From Minisyncoccota bacterium (GTDB lineage Bacteria; Patescibacteriota; Minisyncoccia; UBA6257; 2-01-FULL-56-20): a stretch of DNA of 64,000 nucleotides. Under the pieces are notes generated by a model, which ran no database searches, was not told the DNA's origin, and saw only the letters and a list, made by a program, of their open reading frames with translations. Location of the stretch: the NCBI GenBank assembly GCA_035541435.1, contig DATKNL010000012.1, positions 6,498 through 70,497 of the forward strand, given 5' to 3'. The stretch's first letter is position 1. Each line of letters starts with the position of its first letter. A program made the position numbers and the translations under genes. This document shows positions 30,218 through 42,853 of this stretch, in pieces.

Positions 30218-30303
30218 ATGGGAATTCTACCATGGAGCTGCCGGGCAAAAGAAAAGCCGCTCATAGCGGGCTCGTCCGCTGCTCAGCCTCTTGGCTCACT
30301 CAA

Positions 30304-30777
30304 TCAACGCATCCACGTGCGCCAAATGGGAGCAACGATGGATCCCAAGGCGAAGAGCGAAACCCCGATGACGAGGAGCAGTAGCGCCGCATAAAGCGTC
30401 TTTTTATAATACTTAAAATTTCTTAACGCTTTTATAATTGATTTCACCAATAAAAACTTTGGCTTATCTGGCTGCGGAGGTATTTCCCGCTCCGATAATC
30501 CAATGCTCGAAACCACTGCGGGAGATATTGCGTCCTCTCCTTTTTCATTGCGTGTATTTGACTCGATCCGCGTTAGAAGTTTGGCTATTTGATCTAATCG
30601 TTCGTTGGTCACCTCAAGAGATTCGACAATTTCTGTTATCTTCCAATACCAGGTAATAAATTCCCTGCAAATGAGAAAAACGATTATTGCTATCACAATA
30701 AAAACAAGCAAGGAAGACAACCCGACAGAAGACAATCCCAATATGTTTATCACGGGGTCGGGAACCTGGGGATCCAT
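30304..30777 (-). CDS. Island cassette gene 1: hypothetical 2-TM membrane protein (157 aa)
   Basis: Low-GC ORF preceded by motif box R1 plus a promoter and followed by a terminator at ~30236-30262. Confidence 0.5.
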   Translation of the reverse strand: MDPQVPDPVINILGLSSVGLSSLLVFIVIAIIVFLICREFITWYWKITEIVESLEVTNERLDQIAKLLTRIESNTRNEKGEDAISPAVVSSIGLSEREIPPQPDKPKFLLVKSIIKALRNFKYYKKTLYAALLLLVIGVSLFALGSIVAPIWRTWMR

Positions 30778-30819
30778 AAGATAACTATATCAAAGGCAGG
30801 GTCGGCTTCCTGATCAACC

Positions 30820-30844
30820 GTACTGCGCTGGACGAGCTCAGAGC
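30820..30844 (-). repeat. Cassette box R1 (divergent copy of the att-like motif)
   Basis: gtactgcgctggacgagctcagagc, compared with the consensus agtacgcggcgttggacgagtttagaac. Confidence 0.5.
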
Positions 30845-30856
30845 TCCGTTAGCGCC

Positions 30857-30893
30857 AAAATAAAACATGGCTGCTCCTTTCGGAACAGCCATC
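30857..30893 (-). terminator. Terminator of cassette gene 2
   Basis: ATGGCTG...CAGCCAT stem plus GTTTTATTTTGG on the minus strand. Confidence 0.55.
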
Positions 30894-30980
30894 GATCTGA
30901 AAACTATCTCGGGATCCCGTAGCCCACAAAAGGCAGCGGCCACGAACGGCCTCTTCGCGTCCTCTCCTCCCGTTGATCGG

Positions 30981-31211
30981 TTAGCTTATGACGACGAACT
31001 CGGATGGGTCATAGGAACCTTCCGTGCCATCGTCATGCAGGATGTCATAGCAAAGTCCGTGACAATCATGATGTCTCAGCACCTTCCCGGACATATCCGG
31101 CTTCTTGCTCGCCCATCCTTTCTCGGTCCATTCGTCTCGCATTGCGAGGTTCGGTTGGGTGGTTCTCACTCGCGTGCCCGGATCGATCGGCGGCCATTTT
31201 TCCCGAGTCAT
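30981..31211 (-). CDS. Island cassette gene 2: hypothetical soluble protein (76 aa from ATG 31211; track shows TTG-extended form)
   Basis: GAGGAGGAG SD 7 nt upstream of ATG MTREKWPPID. Confidence 0.5.
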   Translation of the reverse strand: MTREKWPPIDPGTRVRTTQPNLAMRDEWTEKGWASKKPDMSGKVLRHHDCHGLCYDILHDDGTEGSYDPSEFVVIS

Positions 31212-31249
31212 ATTCAACTCCTCCTCTCGTTTCATTGACAACTGACTAT

Positions 31250-31306
31250 GTTATAAATTAATGCATAATTTCTGTCAATTCACGCGGCGCTGGACGAGTT
31301 TAGAAC
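31250..31306 (-). promoter_or_regulatory. Cassette 2 promoter: box R2 (31281-31306) + TTGACA (31278-31273) -17- TATAAC (31255-31250)
   Basis: The minus-strand read is GTTCTAAACTCGTCCAGCGCCGCGTGAATTGACAGAAATTATGCATTAATTTATAAC. Confidence 0.55.
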
Positions 31307-31330
31307 CGATATATTGGCGATGGACGGCGG

Positions 31331-31362
31331 AACAAGAAAGCCGCTCTCGCTGAGAGCGGCTT
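31331..31362 (-). terminator. Terminator of cassette gene 3
   Basis: AGCCGCTCTC-GCTG-AGAGCGGCT, a 10-bp perfect stem. Confidence 0.6.
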
Positions 31363-31377
31363 GGTCCTGACTGATGG

Positions 31378-31893
31378 CTATCGGCTGAGGCCGGCCTGCT
31401 GAGTGACTTCGACGATGGCACCCCTGCCCGATTTTACGAAACGCACATCGCCAGGATCGTCATCGAAAAGGTTCCCGCACGACGCACACCCGGTTCCGAC
31501 GGCCCTCGATGGCATTCTGAGGAACTCCTCCGAAACCGGAACCAGGATGCATCGGGCAAACCCATTCCCGGTCTCTTCGCCATCATACGTGCCAACCCAC
31601 GTCCCATCCGCCTGCTTCGTGAACGCATAGCGAACAACGTCGGGTCGACCATCGTACTTCTTGTTGAATGTCAAAGCGGTTTCGGTCAGGTGGACATCAT
31701 CGACGATCGATTCGCCTAAAGGATCAACGAGCCGCCCGACGAGGATGCCTTCCCCGCAATTGTCGGGGCCTATGACGCCCGAGAACAAGGACCGCACCAA
31801 ACCGTGCAAAAACACTGCGTGAAGGTCCCCGCCGAGAGCGCTGAGACCAAGACTCGGCCGTTCCTGAAAGAAGAATCCCTGGATCAGATACAT
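31378..31893 (-). CDS. Island cassette gene 3: hypothetical protein (172 aa from ATG 31893)
   Basis: AGGAGG 6 nt upstream of ATG MYLIQGFFF. The track ORF extends to 32049, but that part overlaps the promoter and box. Confidence 0.5.
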   Translation of the reverse strand: MYLIQGFFFQERPSLGLSALGGDLHAVFLHGLVRSLFSGVIGPDNCGEGILVGRLVDPLGESIVDDVHLTETALTFNKKYDGRPDVVRYAFTKQADGTWVGTYDGEETGNGFARCILVPVSEEFLRMPSRAVGTGCASCGNLFDDDPGDVRFVKSGRGAIVEVTQQAGLSR

Positions 31894-31921
31894 CTGTCGC
31901 CTCCTACGGTACGCTGCCTGG

Positions 31922-32014
31922 ATCATAGCTGCCGAGCGATTGTCTGTCAAAGCTGCTCGAGCTCGACGAGATGCGATCAGCGAAATAGCGCGCGGCGCTG
32001 GACGAGCTTGGAAC
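31922..32014 (-). promoter_or_regulatory. Cassette 3 promoter: box R3 (31988-32014), TTGACA (31950-31945) -17- TATGAT (31927-31922)
   Basis: Read directly from the sequence: consensus hexamers with 17-bp spacing. Confidence 0.55.
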
Positions 32015-32015
32015 T

Positions 32016-32052
32016 TTGGGAGCGGTGGAAAAATGGAGAAGGCGACCATTTC
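32016..32052 (-). terminator. Terminator of cassette gene 4
   Basis: AAGGCGA-N10-TCGCCTT followed by CTCCATTTTTCC on the minus strand. Confidence 0.5.
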
Positions 32053-32083
32053 TGATCGCCTTACATGTTGCGCTCACCGGTCG

Positions 32084-32779
32084 TCAGAATCCCGCGGGGT
32101 TCTTTACGAGCGCGATGATGTCTTTCAGCGCGTAGTAGTTGGGATTGATGAAATAGCCAGCCGCATCGGTAAGCCCGCGATAAAGATTCATCATTCCGAA
32201 CACGACTGCGACCAGGGGGACGACGACAGTGAAGAATCCTCGCCATCCCTTGTGGGTAGGCAATGGGGGCAAATCAGGGTCAATACTTTTGAAGTTCGGC
32301 TTCTTGGGATCGTTGTCGTCGGGCGACGGCTGCCACCATTTGAGCAACAAGCGACGATAGAGCCATACAAGGAATAGGAACCCGATCGGATTGATGAGTC
32401 CTGTCACGCCTTTCACATATTGCTGCATGACGAGGACTCGCCAAAGCTGAGGAGCTACCTGTTCGATTTTCCCGGCCAAGTAGATCACGGTTTCTTTCGC
32501 CATGTCGAGGCCTTTGTCGAGGGCGTCACCGACCGTCTTGTGTTCGCCGGGTTTCGTGTCTTGAGCCTGGTCGTTTGCGGCTTTCTGAAGAACCTCGAGC
32601 GCTTGTTGGAGCTCTTTCCTTTGCTGTGGATCCTTCAGCCGATCCATGATGCTCGGTCCAGAAGCTTGTTGGGCAGGCGGTGCTGGTGCCTGCGAAGAGT
32701 TCTGCGCAAACGCAGAAACAAAAAGCGTCATCAGCGCCACCAATACCAAAACCTGCGTCGGCTTGCGTGTCATAACCAC
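32084..32779 (-). CDS. Island cassette gene 4: secreted/membrane protein (signal peptide + C-terminal TM, 231 aa)
   Basis: MVMTRKPTQVLVLVALMTLFVSAFAQ signal, Gln/Ala-rich helical region, and two C-terminal hydrophobic segments. Confidence 0.5.
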   Translation of the reverse strand: MVMTRKPTQVLVLVALMTLFVSAFAQNSSQAPAPPAQQASGPSIMDRLKDPQQRKELQQALEVLQKAANDQAQDTKPGEHKTVGDALDKGLDMAKETVIYLAGKIEQVAPQLWRVLVMQQYVKGVTGLINPIGFLFLVWLYRRLLLKWWQPSPDDNDPKKPNFKSIDPDLPPLPTHKGWRGFFTVVVPLVAVVFGMMNLYRGLTDAAGYFINPNYYALKDIIALVKNPAGF

Positions 32780-32809
32780 CTCGTCTTTCGATTTCGAACA
32801 ACTGGCAAT

Positions 32810-32865
32810 GTTATAACATTGCCATTGTAAAATGTCTAGTACGCGGCGTTGGACGAGTTTAGAAC
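32810..32865 (-). promoter_or_regulatory. Cassette 4 promoter: box R4 (32838-32865), TAGACA -17- TATAAC (32815-32810)
   Basis: The minus-strand read is GTTCTAAACTCGTCCAACGCCGCGTACTAGACATTTTACAATGGCAATGTTATAAC. Confidence 0.5.
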
Positions 32866-32873
32866 ATTATTAG

Positions 32874-32901
32874 CGAAAAAAAGTGACCCTTTTGGGATCA
32901 C
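32874..32901 (-). terminator. Terminator of cassette gene 5
   Basis: GTGATCCC-AAAA-GGGTCAC followed by TTTTTTT on the minus strand. Confidence 0.6.
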
Positions 32902-32926
32902 GTTATAGGCACCGACTAAGTTTTTA

Positions 32927-33190
32927 CTAAAGCTCTAAAGAATCGGGAATGTCCTTAAGTATCTCATTGAGAGCTTCGATTTTTTTACGCAACATTGGCT
33001 CAACTTTTTCAATTGTTCTTGGATTTGCATCCGGCCCAAAATTGGTTTCGAGAGCTAGAACAAGAGATTGAGCTTCCCCGACGTCTGCTCCTAATCGAGC
33101 GATAAGCCTGAGATTGTCACGCAATGCGTACAACTTCTCGGGGGTTATTTCTGATTCAACCTGCGGAGATTTGTTTTCGATGCTTTCCAT
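32927..33190 (-). CDS. Island cassette gene 5: small acidic helical protein (87 aa)
   Basis: ORF between a terminator and promoter R5. Confidence 0.45.
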   Translation of the reverse strand: MESIENKSPQVESEITPEKLYALRDNLRLIARLGADVGEAQSLVLALETNFGPDANPRTIEKVEPMLRKKIEALNEILKDIPDSLEL

Positions 33191-33267
33191 GCAAGTCCTT
33201 TTTGTTATGCTCTAAGTGAATCATGCGACCAGACACAATGTCAATCGGCTTTCGATCGGCTGAATAT

Positions 33268-33329
33268 GTTATTACATAATATATTATGTATGTCAACTTT
33301 CAGTACGCGGCGTTGGACGAATTTAGAAC
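33268..33329 (-). promoter_or_regulatory. Cassette 5 promoter: box R5 (33303-33329), TTGACA (33296-33291) -17- AATAAC (33273-33268)
   Basis: It shares TTGACATACATAA with the cassette 6 promoter region. Confidence 0.5.
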
Positions 33330-33331
33330 TG

Positions 33332-33375
33332 CATTGTCGTTAGAAAAATAGAAGAGGCGAATCCTCGTGAGAGAA
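33332..33375 (-). terminator. Terminator of cassette gene 6
   Basis: GAGGCG...CGCCTC hairpin followed by TATTTTTCT on the minus strand. Confidence 0.45.
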
Positions 33376-33409
33376 TCCGCCTCTTGTTGGCTAGTGGGCC
33401 CGGATGAAC

Positions 33410-33730
33410 TTAGGCGTCTGAGGTCGCCTTGCCAGACCTTATGGTTCTCGCCTGTTGAAGGAGAATGAGATGATCTTCGTTCACCTGACCGAGATGGTTG
33501 GCGAGAGCCACGATACCGTTTTCGGCATGTTCTCCCGACAAAGCGATGCCGCCCAGAGTCAGGATTATTAGTTCCAGGACGGGTTCGAACTTGGCCCGAA
33601 AACCCATCTGGACCAAGGGATCCATGGTGGCGATCGCCGTTCTGATTCTCGCGGGAGGCTCCCAAGATATTTTCCCCGCCGATCCCGCGTCAACGATTAT
33701 CGCTCGAGCAGAAGTTGCGTCTTTTTTCAT
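33410..33730 (-). CDS. Island cassette gene 6: hypothetical protein (106 aa)
   Basis: ORF whose upstream region carries TTGACAT fused to the tRNA-Glu 3'-end duplicate. Confidence 0.45.
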   Translation of the reverse strand: MKKDATSARAIIVDAGSAGKISWEPPARIRTAIATMDPLVQMGFRAKFEPVLELIILTLGGIALSGEHAENGIVALANHLGQVNEDHLILLQQARTIRSGKATSDA

Positions 33731-33806
33731 TTACCTTCCTCCGGGCTGAAATCTATTAGTCAAAAACGATCTGAAAGGATATTGTCATATCTATTTATGT
33801 ATGTCA

Positions 33807-33826
33807 AGTACCGCTAACCGGATTTT
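33807..33826 (-). repeat. Direct repeat R6: 20-bp duplicate of the tRNA-Glu 3' end (att-like)
   Basis: agtaccgctaaccggatttt here, versus agtaccgctaaccggatttg at 33993-34012 (19/20 identical). Confidence 0.7.
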
Positions 33827-33929
33827 CACTGCTCGGCAGCTTCGCTGCCTGCGCTTTGAGAACCCTCGGTTCTCAAGACTCTCCGACACGGGAGGGGCAG
33901 ACTGCCCCTCCCGACCCCTCCCCTCGTTC

Positions 33930-33952
33930 AAATCCGGGTCGGTGATAGCGGT
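33930..33952 (+). repeat. Inverted partial copy of tRNA-Glu 3' end
   Basis: aaatccgggtcggtgatagcggt, versus the reverse complement of the repeat aaaatccggttagcggtact. Confidence 0.45.
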
Positions 33953-33994
33953 TGCAAAAGGGATCCATCACAAGATGGATCCCTTTTGCAATAG

Positions 33995-34069
33995 TACCGC
34001 TAACCGGATTTGAACCGGTGTTTTCGCCGTGAGAGGGCGACGTCCTAGACCGGGCTAGACGATAGCGGC
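33995..34069 (-). tRNA. tRNA-Glu (anticodon CUC)
   Basis: Manual fold: acceptor GCCGCTA/TAGCGGT, D stem GTCT/GGAC, anticodon stem TCGCC/GGCGA with loop CTCTCAC, T arm ACCGG-TTCAAAT-CCGGT. It is close to E. coli tRNA-Glu. CCA is not encoded. Confidence 0.8.
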
Positions 34070-38688: not shown

Positions 38689-38715
38689 GTTAGTTCTGCA
38701 CAGAAAGGGGCCTTT

Positions 38716-38744
38716 ATCCCCAGAATTATCCACAACTCCCCACT
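38716..38744 (-). promoter_or_regulatory. Putative MraZ operator: three direct GTGGNNA repeats at 10-bp spacing
   Basis: The minus-strand read is GTGGGGAGTTGTGGATAATTCTGGGGA, just upstream of mraZ. Confidence 0.45.
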
Positions 38745-38906
38745 TCTCTACTACTATATACCACTACGCTCGCCCGTCAAAATACGTTACGGCGCCGCCA
38801 ATTTTTGAACGAAAAAGGCCGTTTTTCGGCCGTTTTTTTAAACTCCCCTCTATTGATATGCACAGCATATGCAATTCAAGCATTCCCCACCGCCCCAAAA
38901 GCCGAA

Positions 38907-39668
38907 ATGCTAGCATTGATGCATCCCCGCATGAGCAGAAAGCTGATCAAATTCTTTCTCATCCTCCTCGCGATCCAGACGCTGATCGCCCTCGTTCTTT
39001 TCCTCTTCTTAACCCCGTACGGCACAGCCGCGCACGGCATCATCGGCATGGGCCTCGGCCTCATCCTGTTCTGGAACGTCATCGGCGGCTACATCCAGTG
39101 GAAGATCCGCGACCGCGTGAAGGCCGCGTGGCAGGCGGTGCGCCTCGACTGGCGGCTCAAGTTCGGCATCCTCGCCACCATCATGGCACTCCTCGAGGAA
39201 ATGGTGACCGTCACGATGACGAACCTCTCCTTCCTCTTCGGCACGACGCCCGCCGTCGCGCATATCACCGTCTCGACGAACTATCTCGACGTCGTCCTCA
39301 CGAACAGCGTGGTCCTCTTCGTGCCGATGTTCTTCATCTGGGCGCTCATCCTCTCGCGCTATGACTTCAGCCCGAACGCCGTCCTGCTCCTCTGGGGCAC
39401 GACGGGAACCCTCATGGAGGCGGGCTATGGCGGCGCGAACCAGGTCATCGGCATCGGAATGTGGATGTTCGTCTATGGCCTCATGATCTACCTTCCCGCC
39501 TATTCGATGCCGTCCGCCGCCGAACGCGGCGCGCTCAGGCAGCCGCGCTGGTGGCATTACGTGCTGTCCGTCTTCGTTCCGCCCATCGTCGGCATCGTGC
39601 CGGGCGGCCTCCTCGGAACGTTTTTCAAATTCATCAGGCCGCCGCATTACCTGCCGGGGGTGAAATAA
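38907..39668 (+). CDS. Polytopic membrane protein of unknown function
   Basis: About 7 TM helices. The start is uncertain (ATG at 38907/38919/38931); the track ORF begins at a TTG at 38805. Confidence 0.5.
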   Translation: MLALMHPRMSRKLIKFFLILLAIQTLIALVLFLFLTPYGTAAHGIIGMGLGLILFWNVIGGYIQWKIRDRVKAAWQAVRLDWRLKFGILATIMALLEEMVTVTMTNLSFLFGTTPAVAHITVSTNYLDVVLTNSVVLFVPMFFIWALILSRYDFSPNAVLLLWGTTGTLMEAGYGGANQVIGIGMWMFVYGLMIYLPAYSMPSAAERGALRQPRWWHYVLSVFVPPIVGIVPGGLLGTFFKFIRPPHYLPGVK

Positions 39669-39815
39669 CGTGGAGGCTTGAACTTCTCGAGTTCGAAGTC
39701 CGCGCTCAACGATTCAAAAAACAATCGTGCTTTTATATTGCGAGGTCCGAGTTTGGATGTGTATAAACTCCTTTTTTTCGACAACGAGTCCGCCATCCTG
39801 TTCCGATATTATCGG

Positions 39816-42569
39816 TTAATTTATATAAGCCTCGTAGAGCACAAACAAAAACTCCAATCGTTCCGCCTCGGAAGCAAACCCCCGCGGCGCGCCATATGCG
39901 GCATCGACCGCTTTGTCGAGACGTTCATGGGCTTCGAGAAGCTGGGACGGCATGACATTGGGATCATAAAGATCAGCCAGCGTTCCCCTGCATTCCTTCC
40001 GCACGTCAAGAAGATTATTTGACGCATCTTCTATGGCATGACGATGTTCCGTGCTAATGCTTTGAGGCCACGGGTAATTATTATAGACCAGTTCATTTGA
40101 ATAACGATATCGAGATTCTAGCCGACCACACACCGCCCTCATCCATGTCATATGCATGAGAGATTGCAAAACTCCGAAGTGATACGGCGTAACATTTGGA
40201 ACGACAATACACGTATCCCCCACGATATATTCTGGCCCAAATAACGAAAGTGGAACGTATTTCCTTCGCTCCGAGCTCACCCTCGGAATGAGAACATATT
40301 CCGTGTCCGGCTGACGGTCTTCTCCGAAAAGGTATGGTTTTCTCGCAAGCCGGCGGGTCGCCTCGCGCTTAGACTGGTCACGATACGTCCGCACCGATTC
40401 GACGCGTTGCATGACGTGCGGCATGGCACGCAACTCCTGCGGGGTGGCGTTTTTTAACCAAAGACAATACCGCGTAGATCCGTTAAGGTATTCCTTGGCG
40501 GACAGCAGTGGTCGAATGAACCTTTCAGCGGCTGGCTCTTCGATTAAAAGACTTTCCTTCTCGGCGTTGTCGTCAAAGAGCAAAAATCCACCATCGTTCG
40601 GCATGCTACCGAATCGCGCTTCGGGGACTTCAGCGATCGGCTTCCTGCGCGGCAATACGACGAGATTGTCGGCATCGACTAAATATGGGTTAATATTCTG
40701 TGCCTGAACAAGATGAGGACTGCCACCGGGATCATCGTAGTCCCATAGTTTCGGCTTCTCCGACCGTTCAAGAGAGAAGCCGATAATGACACAGTGAACA
40801 CCGGCCCGTCCCGGAGCTTCATTCGACCAGCGAAAGGTGCGATGTGCGAAGTTGATGTTGATGCCCTTCCCCAACAACAGCGGCCACAAAATGGCAGCTT
40901 GCTCCCCTTGCGTAATGGAGTTTGTGGAGACAAAAGCAGAACTGATCTTTGTTCCTTGAATGAAGTCGGCCGCTTTGGCATACCACGCCGTTACATAATC
41001 CAGTTCCCCCGCACCGCGGAGATCGCCGAAGATGTTTTGCATTTCGGTTTTCTGCTCGGGGCTTTGATCTTGCTTCGCGATGAACGGAGGGTTCCCAAGG
41101 ATATAGGTGAACGAAGCGCCTTCCGGTGCGAGACGGCTCCAGTCCGTATTCAAGGCATCGCCATGAAAAATGAACGGCTGTTCCTTCAGCGGGAGTTTAG
41201 CAAAATATTCCCCGAACAGATTTCCGAGAATGACGTTCATCTGATGATCGATGAGCCAGAGCGATAGACGAGCGATCTCCGCAGGAAAGGCGAGAATCTC
41301 TATTCCGGAAAGATGTTCAAGTGTCAATTTGGAGATGCTCGAAACATCGATCTTCAAGTTAAGGGGCGTCTGTCCCGATTTGAGTTCTTCTCTATAGAGC
41401 CTTTTAATGATCTCCAATTCAATGAGGCGCAATTCGCGGTACGCAACGACGAGAAAGTTTCCGCATCCGCAGGCAGGATCGAGAAGACGCATTGAGACGA
41501 TCCTGTTCCACAACGCGTTGAGCTTCGATTGATTCTCCCCCGCTTTCTCCAACTCATCTCTTACGTCATCCAAAAACAGTCCATCGATAACTTTCAAAAT
41601 GTTTTTCTCCGACGTATAGTGCGCTCCAAAATCGTGTCTGATATCCTCGTCCTCCACGTCCATGACGAATTGAAACATTGAACCGAAAATCGCGGGCGAG
41701 ACCGAACCCCAGTCGAAACGCGCGGCATTGAGGATTTCCTGCCGCATTTCCTTATTGAAGAACGGAAGCGAGAGCGGGTCTTTGAAGAGCGTCCCATTCA
41801 CATAGGGAAAATCCTTCAGGTCGTCAGACAACGCCTGTTGCCGACGATCCTCCGGCGTGTTCAATACCTGGAAAATAGCCTGCAGATGCCCTCCCAAATC
41901 CTCGCCGTTCTCCTTAGTAAGATAAGCGACGTAATCATGAAAGATGTCGCGTTTCGGGAAAATGCCCGCATCGTCGGCGAAGTAAAGAAAGACGAGGCGA
42001 ACCATGAGTCGCGCGAGCTGTTCTTTTGGATAGTTCCCTTGATAAAGAGCTCGGTAGAGCTGGACCACCACGCGCACCGCTTTTTTGTTGACGGGGTTTT
42101 CCTCCTCGTAATGACGCACTTCATATCCGGCGATGAAGCCGAAGAGGCGGATGTGCGCCGGAAGCTCGGTGAGGCGGAACGTGTGTTCTTCCGCTTTCCC
42201 GTTCTTCCCTTCGAGGTCGTATAATCGCAGATGCTCGAAGTCGGTAACAACAATAAAGCGAGGGCGATTTTCCTCGGCAAGGCTCAAAAAATAATCATTT
42301 GCCTGTAATGTGGCGCTATCGAGACTCTCCCCGCGGGATTTGTGTTCCACCAGAAGCACGCCCGGCCAAAAGAGGTCTATGAAGCCAGTGTTGCCGTTGA
42401 TCTTTTGAATCGCCCGTTGGAATCCTGCGACGGAACGCCGCCTGACTCCGAAGATATCAAAAAAGTCGGTCCAAAAATCTGCATAATCTTGGATCTCGCC
42501 GGTAGATTCCTTGTACTCCTTCGCAAAAGCAGTTGCCCGAGATCGAATCTCGTTCCAACTCAAGGTCAT
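39816..42569 (-). CDS. Type IIL (MmeI-like) restriction-modification enzyme: endonuclease + gamma-class N6-adenine methyltransferase + TRD in one chain
   Basis: 917 aa from MTLSWNEIRSRATAFAKEYK (MmeI-type N-terminus), LDPACGCGNFLV (SAM motif I), GNPPF (motif IV). The track's N-terminal extension is a read-through of tRNA-Val. GC is ~50% against ~65% background. Confidence 0.8.
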   Translation of the reverse strand: MTLSWNEIRSRATAFAKEYKESTGEIQDYADFWTDFFDIFGVRRRSVAGFQRAIQKINGNTGFIDLFWPGVLLVEHKSRGESLDSATLQANDYFLSLAEENRPRFIVVTDFEHLRLYDLEGKNGKAEEHTFRLTELPAHIRLFGFIAGYEVRHYEEENPVNKKAVRVVVQLYRALYQGNYPKEQLARLMVRLVFLYFADDAGIFPKRDIFHDYVAYLTKENGEDLGGHLQAIFQVLNTPEDRRQQALSDDLKDFPYVNGTLFKDPLSLPFFNKEMRQEILNAARFDWGSVSPAIFGSMFQFVMDVEDEDIRHDFGAHYTSEKNILKVIDGLFLDDVRDELEKAGENQSKLNALWNRIVSMRLLDPACGCGNFLVVAYRELRLIELEIIKRLYREELKSGQTPLNLKIDVSSISKLTLEHLSGIEILAFPAEIARLSLWLIDHQMNVILGNLFGEYFAKLPLKEQPFIFHGDALNTDWSRLAPEGASFTYILGNPPFIAKQDQSPEQKTEMQNIFGDLRGAGELDYVTAWYAKAADFIQGTKISSAFVSTNSITQGEQAAILWPLLLGKGININFAHRTFRWSNEAPGRAGVHCVIIGFSLERSEKPKLWDYDDPGGSPHLVQAQNINPYLVDADNLVVLPRRKPIAEVPEARFGSMPNDGGFLLFDDNAEKESLLIEEPAAERFIRPLLSAKEYLNGSTRYCLWLKNATPQELRAMPHVMQRVESVRTYRDQSKREATRRLARKPYLFGEDRQPDTEYVLIPRVSSERRKYVPLSLFGPEYIVGDTCIVVPNVTPYHFGVLQSLMHMTWMRAVCGRLESRYRYSNELVYNNYPWPQSISTEHRHAIEDASNNLLDVRKECRGTLADLYDPNVMPSQLLEAHERLDKAVDAAYGAPRGFASEAERLEFLFVLYEAYIN

Positions 42570-42613
42570 ATCGTCAATGCTACCTCCGGACTGTGGAAAT
42601 TGCCATCTACGTG

Positions 42614-42686
42614 TGGGCGTTGCAGGGATCGGACCTGCGACCTCTCCGATGTGAACGGAGCGCTCTAACCACTGAGCTAAACGCCC
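42614..42686 (-). tRNA. tRNA-Val (anticodon CAC)
   Basis: GGGCGTT-TA-GCTCAGTGGTTAGAGC-G-CTCCG-TTCACAT-CGGAG-AGGTC-GCAGGTCCGATCCCTGC-AACGCCC-A. Confidence 0.8.
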
Positions 42687-42853
42687 TTCCGAACGATTGT
42701 AGCGAAAAAAGCCGCGAAGCGCAAAAAAATCCCGGCATAGGATGGTTTGAGGGGAACCTCGGAGGCACGCAGGTGCCGAGAGCTTAGGTGCGCGGCCAGC
42801 GGGCCGTGACACCGTCCCCGAAAACCATCCTTGCACGGGATTTTTGCTTTGCG

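What the first reader, a model, noticed from the sequence alone, without database searches (positions are those of the whole stretch)
39669..42686. Low-GC MmeI-family Type IIL restriction-modification enzyme inserted 3' of tRNA-Val
A single 917-aa protein carries an MmeI-like N-terminus (MTLSWNEIR), a gamma-class m6A methyltransferase (LDPACGCGNFLV, NPPF) and a C-terminal target-recognition domain. GC is ~50% against ~65% for the flanks. The gene begins 45 nt after tRNA-Val with a GGAGGT SD, and the six-frame ORF reads through the tRNA. The 3' flank (39669-39815) is AT-rich. No direct repeat of the tRNA-Val end is visible in the 39669-39815 flank. Single-chain R-M-S enzymes of this family have reprogrammable specificity, so the target motif cannot be inferred without data.
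Basis: partly seen in the sequence, partly recalled or inferred. Interest (0 to 1): 0.6.

Follow-up and report, generated by a model that had tools for sequence, protein, structure and literature searches.

The report
MmeI-type restriction-modification gene beside tRNA-Val
This is an intact, horizontally acquired single-protein restriction-modification gene of the well-known MmeI family. It sits in a recurrent insertion slot just after a tRNA-Val gene in a small-genome (Paceibacterota) bacterium, and is an ordinary defence gene whose DNA target can be partly predicted as CAG(A/G)AC.

Summary
A 917-aa ORF (39816-42569, minus strand) starts 44 nt after tRNA-Val(CAC). It carries all five MmeI Pfam domains and aligns end to end with the crystallised MmeI (5HR4; 879 bits, 46% identity). 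The nuclease triad D65/E75/K77, the DPACGCGNFL motif and NPPF are all intact.

Its GC3 is 0.58, against 0.74-0.91 for neighbouring genes. Four syntenic relatives have rplJ-rplL-tRNA-Val-mraZ. Three of them leave only about 160-210 bp between tRNA-Val and mraZ. The fourth carries different cargo, including an IS1595 transposase, at the same spot. So the gene is a recent, integrase-free insertion into a hot spot. I found no att repeat.

The published MmeI recognition code reproduces AAGGAG for CstMI here, and it reads this enzyme as 5'-CAG(R or G)AC-3', with m6A on the penultimate A.

Close homologues (up to 77% identical) differ at the position-6 residue pair (K/D instead of E/R), which predicts CAGRAG-type sites.

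The protein is already deposited as "DNA methyltransferase" from a Candidatus Paceibacterota MAG. It is a new member of a known kind, of low interest.

The parts
39816..42569 (-). Gene for a 917-aa MmeI-family Type IIL (IIG) restriction-modification enzyme: ATG at 42569, TAA at 39816-39818
   Evidence: Translation. Pfam MmeI_N, MmeI_hel, MmeI_Mtase, MmeI_TRD and MmeI_C, all full length. PDB 5HR4 MmeI at 879 bits. PADLOC REase_MTase_IIG at 1110 bits. GC3 is 0.58.
42042..42569 (-). N-terminal PD-ExK endonuclease domain (aa 1-176), with catalytic D65, E75 and K77 in FIDLFWPGVLLVEHK
   Evidence: MmeI_N covers aa 11-176. D65/E75/K77 align with MmeI D70/E80/K82 and are invariant in 120/120 homologues. 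PMC2731913 defines these residues as catalytic.
41784..42023 (-). Helical spacer domain (aa 183-262)
   Evidence: Pfam MmeI_hel, E = 1.8e-22.
40743..41552 (-). Gamma-class N6-adenine DNA methyltransferase domain (aa 340-609), with motif I LDPACGCGNFL (aa 363-373) and motif IV NPPF (aa 493-496)
   Evidence: Pfam MmeI_Mtase, E = 2.2e-91. Motifs read directly and invariant in homologues.
40062..40673 (-). Target recognition domain (aa 633-836). Specificity residues are F653/M656, R735/G749/E750, R763/D785, T786/R822 and E818/R820.
   Evidence: Pfam MmeI_TRD, E = 1.4e-73. Residues mapped to MmeI Y642/K645, A723/F737/Y738, E751/N773, A774/R810 and E806/R808. Code taken from PMC2731914 and PMC4833311.
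39825..40049 (-). MmeI C-terminal domain (aa 841-915)
   Evidence: Pfam MmeI_C, E = 8.9e-23.
42570..42613 (-). Leader of 43-44 nt between the tRNA-Val 3' end and the ATG. It contains the GGAGGT Shine-Dalgarno (42587-42582). The scan found no promoter-like or terminator-like site in it.
   Evidence: Sequence and promoter/terminator scan. Homology with the relatives ends about 5 nt after the tRNA.
42614..42686 (-). tRNA-Val(CAC), conserved in all four relatives. A TACAAT -10-like box lies just upstream at 42696-42701.
   Evidence: ARAGORN, Rfam 67.8 bits, alignments.
39669..39815 (.). AT-rich spacer of 147 bp (GC 0.456) between the two convergent genes. Only weak hairpins; no tRNA fragment or att repeat.
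   Evidence: fold z-score -1.1; no Rfam hit.
38907..39668 (+). Convergent 253-aa multi-pass membrane-protein gene of unknown function. It lies inside the indel relative to the relatives but has host-like codon composition (GC3 0.88). The overlapping minus-strand 212-aa ORF is spurious.
   Evidence: GC by codon position and the ENA gene call. No Pfam, PADLOC or PHROG hit. Homologues of 44-54% identity elsewhere are not next to tRNA-Val.
38817..38831 (-). Conserved hairpin terminator, GGCCGAAAAACGGCC followed by a T-run. In relatives with an empty site it lies within about 80 nt of tRNA-Val. Here it lies beyond the whole insert, just upstream of the mraZ promoter (38780-38753).
   Evidence: Scan and five-genome alignment showing compensatory stem changes.

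Best explanation
The gene encodes an intact single-chain MmeI-family (Type IIL) restriction-modification enzyme, a stand-alone anti-phage defence gene.

By homology, one polypeptide binds an asymmetric 6-bp site through its C-terminal TRD. It uses AdoMet to methylate the penultimate adenine of one strand only, which is enough to protect host DNA. When molecules bound at unmodified sites interact, the N-terminal PD-ExK domain cuts both strands about 20/18 nt downstream. All of this is inferred from MmeI biochemistry, not shown here.

Reading the published recognition code gives a predicted site of 5'-CAG(R or G)AC-3'. Position 1 is C, from R735 and E750. Position 2 is A, from F653/M656. Position 3 is G, from R763/D785. 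Position 4 is R or G, from T786/R822. Position 5 is the methylated A. Position 6 is C, from E818/R820.

The gene was acquired horizontally from a genome of about 45-55% GC, probably another Patescibacterium. It landed between tRNA-Val and that tRNA's terminator, in an integrase-free slot that relatives use for other cargo. It has no recognisable promoter of its own, so it is probably transcribed by read-through from the tRNA-Val promoter; this step is inference.
For: Family identity:
- Five full-length MmeI Pfam domains.
- 879-bit, 46%-identical end-to-end alignment to MmeI 5HR4.
- PADLOC REase_MTase_IIG at 1110 bits.

Intactness:
- D65/E75/K77 equal MmeI D70/E80/K82, and E25 is conserved. The triad is invariant in 120/120 homologues.
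- DPACGCGNFL and NPPF are present.
- No frameshift; 917 aa against 919 aa for MmeI.

Stand-alone status:
- The neighbours are rplJ/rplL, tRNA-Val, a membrane protein and mraZ-rsmH-ftsI-murE. There is no second DNA methyltransferase and no BREX or DISARM partner.

Specificity code:
- Rules come from PMC2731914 and PMC4833311.
- The same columns in CstMI (pTP10) read A/G/Q, F/M, K/D, L/R, K/D. That decodes to AAGGAG, its published site.
- The position-6 pairs E/R (55) and K/D (63) covary in 118 of 120 homologues, and the three position-1 classes described by Callahan et al. are all seen.

Horizontal acquisition:
- GC3 is 0.58, against 0.74-0.91 in neighbours.
- The nearest homologues sit in loci of 46-49% GC.
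- L002, L047 and L049 have tRNA-Val followed by 161-207 bp and then mraZ, with no such gene. L048 has Exo_endo_phos, an IS1595 transposase and a tRNA-Asp at the same point.
- Homologues occur in unrelated housekeeping contexts: 37 nt after a tmRNA gene, after prfB, next to argS and after atpD.
- Homologues are also on 294 plasmid records.
Against: - No activity, methylome or expression data exist, so endonuclease activity is inferred from conserved residues only.
- Predicted CAGRAC sites are not avoided in the window: 74 observed against 49.6 +/- 6.5 expected. That is neutral for a self-methylating system, but it gives no positive support.
- MmeI E51 is Q51 here. Two of the 20 newly characterised family enzymes also have Gln at this position (PMC2731913).
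- The position-1 rule (R/K plus E gives C) is a published correlation. Engineering at that position failed in MmeI, and I could not check it against a natural 'C-first' enzyme sequence.
- The T/R pair at position 4 gives R in SdeAI but G in DrdIV and MaqI.
- Only four relatives were found, none above 74% RsmH identity. The polarity of the indel (gain here or loss elsewhere) therefore rests on composition plus parsimony.
- The SD-to-ATG spacing of 12 nt is rather long.
Confidence: 0.85

Rival explanations
1. The protein now works only as a solitary one-strand m6A methyltransferase, epigenetic or anti-restriction. Its nuclease is silent or is regulated off in vivo.
For: Public records name it only 'DNA methyltransferase'. 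MmeI E51 is Q51 here. Predicted sites are not depleted in the window.
Against: The catalytic D/E/K and E25 are intact and under evident constraint, invariant in 120/120 homologues. The whole N-terminal domain matches the MmeI_N profile at E = 1.4e-37. Gln at the E51 position occurs in two of the 20 newly characterised family enzymes (PMC2731913). The 'DNA methyltransferase' name is an automatic label that is also applied to CstMI, a proven endonuclease.
Confidence: 0.08
2. The gene is ancestral at this locus and was lost from the relatives. Its low GC would reflect constraint or expression level rather than foreign origin.
For: Only four relatives are available, all distant at 70-73% RsmH identity. 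The neighbouring ribosomal protein genes are also somewhat lower in GC, 0.58-0.61.
Against: rplJ and rplL still have GC3 of 0.82-0.84, against 0.58 for this gene. Three relatives have a compact tRNA-Val-terminator-mraZ junction with no remnant, and a fourth has unrelated cargo. The closest homologues (59-77% identical) sit in quite different loci.
Confidence: 0.04
3. It is a component of a larger multi-gene defence system (BREX PglX-like or DISARM DrmMI-like), or the remnant of a tRNA-targeting integrative island whose integrase has been lost.
For: Weak partial hits to PglX and DrmMI models. It lies directly 3' of a tRNA, the classic island position.
Against: The PglX scores are 19 bits against cut-offs of 500-900. 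The DrmMI hit covers only the C-terminal half, while the Type IIG model covers residues 2-916 at 1110 bits. There are no partner genes, no integrase and no att-like direct repeat in 38700-42760. There is no flank homology with five homologue loci beyond the ORF.
Confidence: 0.03

Closest known systems
MmeI (Methylophilus methylotrophus; TCCRAC 20/18; PDB 5HR4)
   Same: Same five-domain architecture and nearly the same length (917 against 919 aa). It is 46% identical over 893 aligned columns. It has the same PD-ExK triad, the same DPACGCGNFL and NPPF motifs and the same TRD fold family. The position-6 pair E/R and the position-4 Arg are identical.
   Different: The recognition residues differ for positions 1, 2 and 3: R/G/E against A/F/Y, F/M against Y/K, and R/D against E/N. 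At position 4 it has T where MmeI has A774. The predicted site is therefore CAG(R/G)AC rather than TCCRAC. MmeI E51 is Q here.
SdeAI (Sulfurimonas denitrificans; CAGRAG 21/19)
   Same: A characterised family member whose site differs from the predicted one only at position 6. It also uses Thr plus Arg at the position-4 residues (PMC2731914; PMC2731913 Table 1). The commonest signature among the 120 nearest homologues, RGE-FM-RD-TR-KD (19 proteins, including the 77% and 72% identical ones), decodes to this CAGRAG type.
   Different: This enzyme has E818/R820 (giving C) instead of K/D (giving G) at position 6. I could not obtain the SdeAI sequence, so the comparison rests on the published statements.
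CstMI (Corynebacterium striatum plasmid pTP10; AAGGAG 20/18)
   Same: It has the same F/M pair for A at position 2 and a basic/Asp pair for G at position 3. It is about 38% identical and is also a solitary gene annotated as 'DNA methyltransferase'.
   Different: It reads A/G/Q at position 1 (A), L/R at position 4 (G only) and K/D at position 6 (G). It is plasmid-borne in an actinobacterium.

Membership tests
MmeI family (Type IIL / IIG single-chain R-M-S enzymes) | Significant similarity to MmeI over the entire length (criterion of PMC2731913: E < 1e-20 and full-length similarity) | tested here: met
   phmmer against PDB 5HR4 gives E = 2.4e-263, query 1-913 against MmeI 1-900. Identity is 46%. 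All five MmeI Pfam domains are in order.
MmeI family (Type IIL / IIG single-chain R-M-S enzymes) | N-terminal PD-ExK endonuclease residues aligned with MmeI D70, E80 and K82 | tested here: met
   D65, E75 and K77, invariant in 120/120 homologues.
MmeI family (Type IIL / IIG single-chain R-M-S enzymes) | Central gamma-class N6-adenine methyltransferase (AdoMet motif I, catalytic NPPF) followed directly by the TRD | tested here: met
   LDPACGCGNFL at aa 363-373 and NPPF at aa 493-496. MmeI_Mtase covers aa 340-609 and MmeI_TRD aa 633-836.
MmeI family (Type IIL / IIG single-chain R-M-S enzymes) | Stand-alone system with no separate companion methyltransferase or specificity subunit | tested here: met
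   The flanking genes are rplJ/rplL, tRNA-Val, a membrane protein and mraZ-rsmH. The nearby SpoU and Methyltrans_SAM genes are RNA-methyltransferase families.
MmeI family (Type IIL / IIG single-chain R-M-S enzymes) | Methylates only the penultimate adenine of one strand; cleaves about 20/18 nt downstream; needs AdoMet and interacting sites | not testable with these tools
   Known for MmeI and its relatives (PMC2582602; PMC2731913). It needs a methylome or enzymology for this protein.
BREX PglX / DISARM DrmMI methyltransferases | Score above the family cut-off, and partner genes (PglZ/BrxC..., or DrmA/B/C) in the neighbourhood | tested here: not met
   NCBIfam PglX scores are 19 bits against cut-offs of 500-900. 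The PADLOC DrmMI hits are partial, at most 108.6 bits against 1110.6 for the Type IIG model. There are no partner genes within +/-10 kb.
tRNA-targeting integrative genomic island | Site-specific integrase, plus a direct repeat of the tRNA 3' end at the distal boundary | tested here: not met
   No integrase or recombinase among the called genes. No att-like repeat in 38700-42760 with 8-nt seeds.

The most novel reading that the evidence does not exclude
In this Paceibacterota lineage, the few bases between tRNA-Val and its terminator act as a recurrent, integrase-free cargo slot. Different genomes hold different cargo there: an MmeI-type R-M gene plus a membrane-protein gene here, and a nuclease/phosphatase-family gene plus IS1595 in L048. 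Promoter-less defence genes dropped there would be expressed by read-through from the stable-RNA promoter. The closest homologue lies 37 nt after a tmRNA gene, which hints that the same trick is used elsewhere. In addition, the E/R against K/D difference between 77%-identical enzymes would be a natural one-step specificity switch (CAGRAC against CAGRAG) of the kind so far shown mainly by engineering.
Probability: 0.25. Interest if true: 0.4.

Novelty: new member of a known kind. Interest (0 to 1): 0.2.

Why it matters
There are three modest points.

1. It adds a well-supported, intact Type IIL enzyme to a candidate-phyla-radiation genome. R-M systems are thought to be the main anti-phage defence in that group.

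2. It gives a concrete, falsifiable site prediction, CAG(R/G)AC with m6A at position 5. Any long-read methylome of this population would test it. Together with the K/D-bearing near relatives, it is a natural test of the MmeI recognition code at position 6.

3. It documents an integrase-free insertion hot spot between a tRNA gene and its terminator.

None of this changes what is known about the family.

Tried and rejected
- **att-type repeats.** I searched 38700-42760 for direct and inverted repeats with 8-nt seeds and found only chance-level matches. An Rfam scan of the whole window and a fold of the 3' spacer (z = -1.1) showed no hidden RNA or tRNA fragment.
- **Strain-level presence/absence.** I looked for other strains by exact-protein look-up of RplL and MraZ. 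RplL was not on record. One MraZ query was off by a codon, and the corrected one returned only the source contig. So no strain-level polymorphism could be tested.
- **Membrane-protein homologues.** The metagenome scan with the 253-aa membrane protein gave 29 loci. None had a tRNA-Val nearby, so they were useless as empty sites.
- **Flank homology.** I aligned 80 nt upstream and 160 nt downstream of the gene against five homologue loci. There is no shared flank beyond a GAGGTA ribosome-binding site, so no transposon-like unit can be defined.
- **Motif avoidance.** CAGRAC is not depleted, which is uninformative for a self-methylating system.
- **Checking the code on other enzymes.** I tried to get the SdeAI and PspPRI sequences or the published family alignment. 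No supplements are held, and the guessed plasmid accessions NC_009516 and NC_009517 are not in the collection. I validated the code on CstMI instead.
- **Literature search.** Searching for CAGRAC, CAGGAC or GTYCTG as a methylation motif returned only irrelevant hits.
- **The minus-strand 212-aa ORF (39009-39647).** I rejected it as a gene. Its GC is highest at codon position 1 (0.91), the mirror image of the real plus-strand gene.
- **Structure prediction.** I judged it unnecessary given the 46% full-length identity to a solved structure.
Full report
**1. Observation**

The six-frame ORF list shows one long minus-strand ORF, 39816..42836 (1006 aa from a GTG). It overlaps tRNA-Val(CAC) at 42613-42686 (ARAGORN; Rfam gives 42614-42686 at 67.8 bits).

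The biologically sensible start is the ATG at 42569. It follows GGAGGT (42587-42582) by 12 nt and lies 43-44 nt after the tRNA 3' end. Translation from there gives a 917-aa protein beginning MTLSWNEIR. It contains LLDPACGCGNFLVV and GNPPFIAK and stops at TAA 39816-39818.

The gene is 0.51 GC, against 0.615 for the rest of the window. The 147-bp 3' spacer is 0.456 GC. No repeat joins the tRNA end to the distal flank.

One refinement concerns '~65% GC flanks'. That figure describes the wider neighbourhood (0.63-0.69), whereas the immediate neighbours are 0.58-0.61. Third-codon-position GC separates the gene more cleanly: 0.58 for this gene against 0.74-0.91 for twelve neighbouring genes.

**2. 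What the protein is**

Pfam finds all five MmeI-specific domains in order and at essentially full profile length:

| Domain | Residues | E-value |
|---|---|---|
| MmeI_N | 11-176 | 1.4e-37 |
| MmeI_hel | 183-262 | 1.8e-22 |
| MmeI_Mtase | 340-609 | 2.2e-91 |
| MmeI_TRD | 633-836 | 1.4e-73 |
| MmeI_C | 841-915 | 8.9e-23 |

Other evidence agrees:
- The only PDB match is MmeI itself (5HR4). It scores 879 bits, with query 1-913 against MmeI 1-900, and is 46% identical over 893 columns.
- PADLOC's Type IIG model covers residues 2-916 at 1110 bits.
- The catalytic residues that PMC2731913 uses to define the family (MmeI D70, E80, K82) correspond to D65, E75 and K77. They are invariant in all 120 nearest homologues.
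- MmeI E25 is conserved. MmeI E51 is Gln here, a substitution the same paper reports in two of its 20 newly characterised enzymes.

BREX PglX and DISARM DrmMI models give only weak, partial hits: 19 bits against cut-offs of 500-900 and partial coverage. No partner genes are present. The protein is an intact member of the MmeI family.

**3. Predicted mechanism and target**

What the family does is established for MmeI and about 20 relatives. One polypeptide methylates only the penultimate adenine of the top strand of an asymmetric site, and this alone protects the host. The enzyme needs AdoMet and Mg2+ for cleavage. It cuts both strands about 20/18 nt downstream when molecules bound at two sites interact (PMC2582602; PMC2731913). 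For this protein these steps are inferred, not shown.

- Morgan and Luyten (PMC2731914) assigned MmeI E751/N773 to position 3, A774/R810 to position 4 and E806/R808 to position 6. They switched each position by mutagenesis.
- Callahan et al. (PMC4833311) confirmed this in the crystal structure. They added Y642/K645 for position 2 (K645M changes C to A) and A723/F737/Y738 for position 1 (Arg or Lys at 723 with Glu at 738 correlates with C).

The mapping onto this enzyme is:

| Site position | Residues here | Predicted base |
|---|---|---|
| 1 | R735/G749/E750 | C |
| 2 | F653/M656 | A |
| 3 | R763/D785 | G |
| 4 | T786/R822 | R or G (the same pair gives R in SdeAI but G in DrdIV and MaqI) |
| 5 | (the target base) | methylated A |
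| 6 | E818/R820 | C |

The predicted site is 5'-CAG(R/G)AC-3'.

As a control I fetched CstMI from plasmid pTP10 (published site AAGGAG). The same columns read A/G/Q, F/M, K/D, L/R, K/D, which decodes exactly to A-A-G-G-A-G.

Across the 120 nearest homologues the position-6 pair is either E/R (55) or K/D (63), with only two exceptions. Eleven of the 120 aligned sequences, counting this one, carry its full signature. The commonest signature (19 proteins, including the 77%- and 72%-identical ones) differs only by K/D at position 6, which decodes to the SdeAI-type site CAGRAG.

The weakest link is position 1. The rule there is a correlation, and engineering at that position failed in MmeI.

CAGRAC occurs 74 times in the window, against 49.6 +/- 6.5 expected. 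There is no avoidance, which is uninformative for a self-methylating system.

**4. Genomic setting and origin**

The source is an 83-kb ENA metagenome contig. The identical protein is in NCBI as 'MAG TPA: DNA methyltransferase [Candidatus Paceibacterota bacterium]'.

On the minus strand the gene order is: rplJ, rplL, tRNA-Val, the MmeI-like gene, a convergent plus-strand 253-aa membrane-protein gene, mraZ, rsmH, ftsL-like, ftsI, murE, tRNA-Glu.

Four relatives with 70-73% identical RsmH keep the synteny rplJ-rplL-tRNA-Val-mraZ-rsmH-...-murE-tRNA-Glu:
- In L002, L047 and L049, tRNA-Val is followed within 161-207 bp by mraZ. The interval holds only a short linker, a hairpin terminator and the mraZ promoter and leader.
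- In the window that conserved block (CTGTGCATA..., the hairpin at 38817-38831, the promoter at 38780-38753) lies 3.7 kb away from the tRNA.
- Homology on the tRNA side ends about 5 nt after the tRNA.
- The window therefore carries an insertion of about 38907-42610, placed between the tRNA and its terminator.
- L048 carries different cargo at exactly this point: an Exo_endo_phos gene whose ATG abuts the tRNA end, an IS1595 transposase, a tRNA-Asp and two small ORFs.

The site is thus a hot spot.

Within the window's insert, only the R-M gene is compositionally foreign (GC3 0.58). The membrane-protein gene has host-like GC3 (0.88), and its homologues elsewhere are not tRNA-linked. The two genes probably arrived at different times.

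There is no integrase, no att repeat and no flank homology with other homologue loci. The insertion mechanism is therefore unknown.

The nearest homologues (59-77% identical) sit singly among housekeeping genes in loci of 46-49% GC. They lie 37 nt after a tmRNA gene, after prfB, next to argS, and after atpD. The family is also on 294 plasmid records and a few phages. This is consistent with frequent lateral transfer of the bare gene from a lower-GC donor.

The scan found no promoter-like or terminator-like site between the tRNA and the ATG. Read-through from the tRNA-Val promoter (a TACAAT box at 42696-42701, conserved in L002) is the simplest route to expression, but that is inference.

**5. 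Rival explanations**

- **A methyltransferase-only role.** This is not excluded, but the conserved nuclease residues make it unlikely.
- **Vertical inheritance with loss in the relatives.** This is contradicted by GC3, by the clean empty sites and by the scattered contexts of homologues.
- **Part of BREX or DISARM, or of an integrase-type island.** This fails the defining features tested.

**6. Verdict**

It is an intact, recently acquired MmeI-family Type IIL restriction-modification gene in a tRNA-adjacent hot spot of a Paceibacterota genome.

It is a new, uncharacterised member of a thoroughly characterised family, and the protein is already deposited. This analysis adds three things: a testable site prediction (CAG(R/G)AC), comparative proof of the insertion, and the recognition that the slot is used repeatedly. 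Interest is low (0.2).

Noticed in passing
window 30218-33993 (minus strand), next to tRNA-Glu(CTC) at 33994-34069: A second low-GC island lies directly 3' of a tRNA. It holds five small ORFs (33410-33730, 32927-33190, 32084-32647, 31378-31893, 30981-31235) with GC3 of 0.40-0.67, against 0.8-0.9 for the host. None has a Pfam hit, and one hits PHROG membrane-protein family phrog_1486. In relative L049, tRNA-Glu is followed directly by tpiA, so this too looks like an insertion.
   Followed up: partly
window about 38690-38875 (minus strand); L002 9360-9520; also L047, L048 and L049: The tRNA-Val/mraZ intergenic block is conserved in five genomes. It holds a hairpin terminator whose stem sequence varies but stays paired (compensatory changes). 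Then come a TTGAC-N16/17-TATAGT promoter and three GTGGGGA / GTGGA / CTGGGGA repeats spaced by 10 bp in the mraZ leader, which look like an MraZ operator.
   Followed up: partly
L048 3655-6585 (ENA ERZ25039540 contig_32526): A relative carries unrelated cargo at the same tRNA-Val 3' site: an Exo_endo_phos gene whose ATG abuts the tRNA end, an IS1595-family transposase, a tRNA-Asp and two small ORFs. The same locus also has TraG/VirD4-like genes downstream of murE.
   Followed up: partly
L038 773-1179, and likewise L039 and L040: The closest homologue of the R-M protein (P0002, 77% identical) starts 37 nt after a tmRNA gene downstream of smpB. That arrangement mirrors the tRNA-Val placement in the window. 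The two leaders share only a GAGGTA ribosome-binding site about 12 nt before the ATG.
   Followed up: partly
whole window; relatives L002, L047-L049: The host core genes are unusually GC-rich for a Paceibacterota/CPR genome: 63-69% GC, with GC3 of 0.8-0.9. The loci from its nearest relatives in the databases (RsmH no more than 74% identical) are about 50-53% GC, and no closer relative or second sample of this organism was found.
   Followed up: no
window 38907-39668 (+) against 39009-39647 (-): A 212-aa ORF on the minus strand overlaps the real 253-aa membrane-protein gene on the plus strand. Codon-position GC (0.91 at position 1 for the minus-strand ORF, 0.88 at position 3 for the plus-strand gene) shows that the minus-strand ORF is a shadow ORF typical of high-GC DNA.
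   Followed up: yes
L050 1498-4763 (Deinococcus radiophilus plasmid pRadio4): A plasmid-borne MmeI-family homologue (44% identical) is followed by a TIR-domain protein gene that overlaps its 3' end by 4 nt. This may be a two-gene defence pairing. Its recognition signature (A/R/D, F/M, G/N, K/S, E/R) differs from that of the window enzyme.
   Followed up: no
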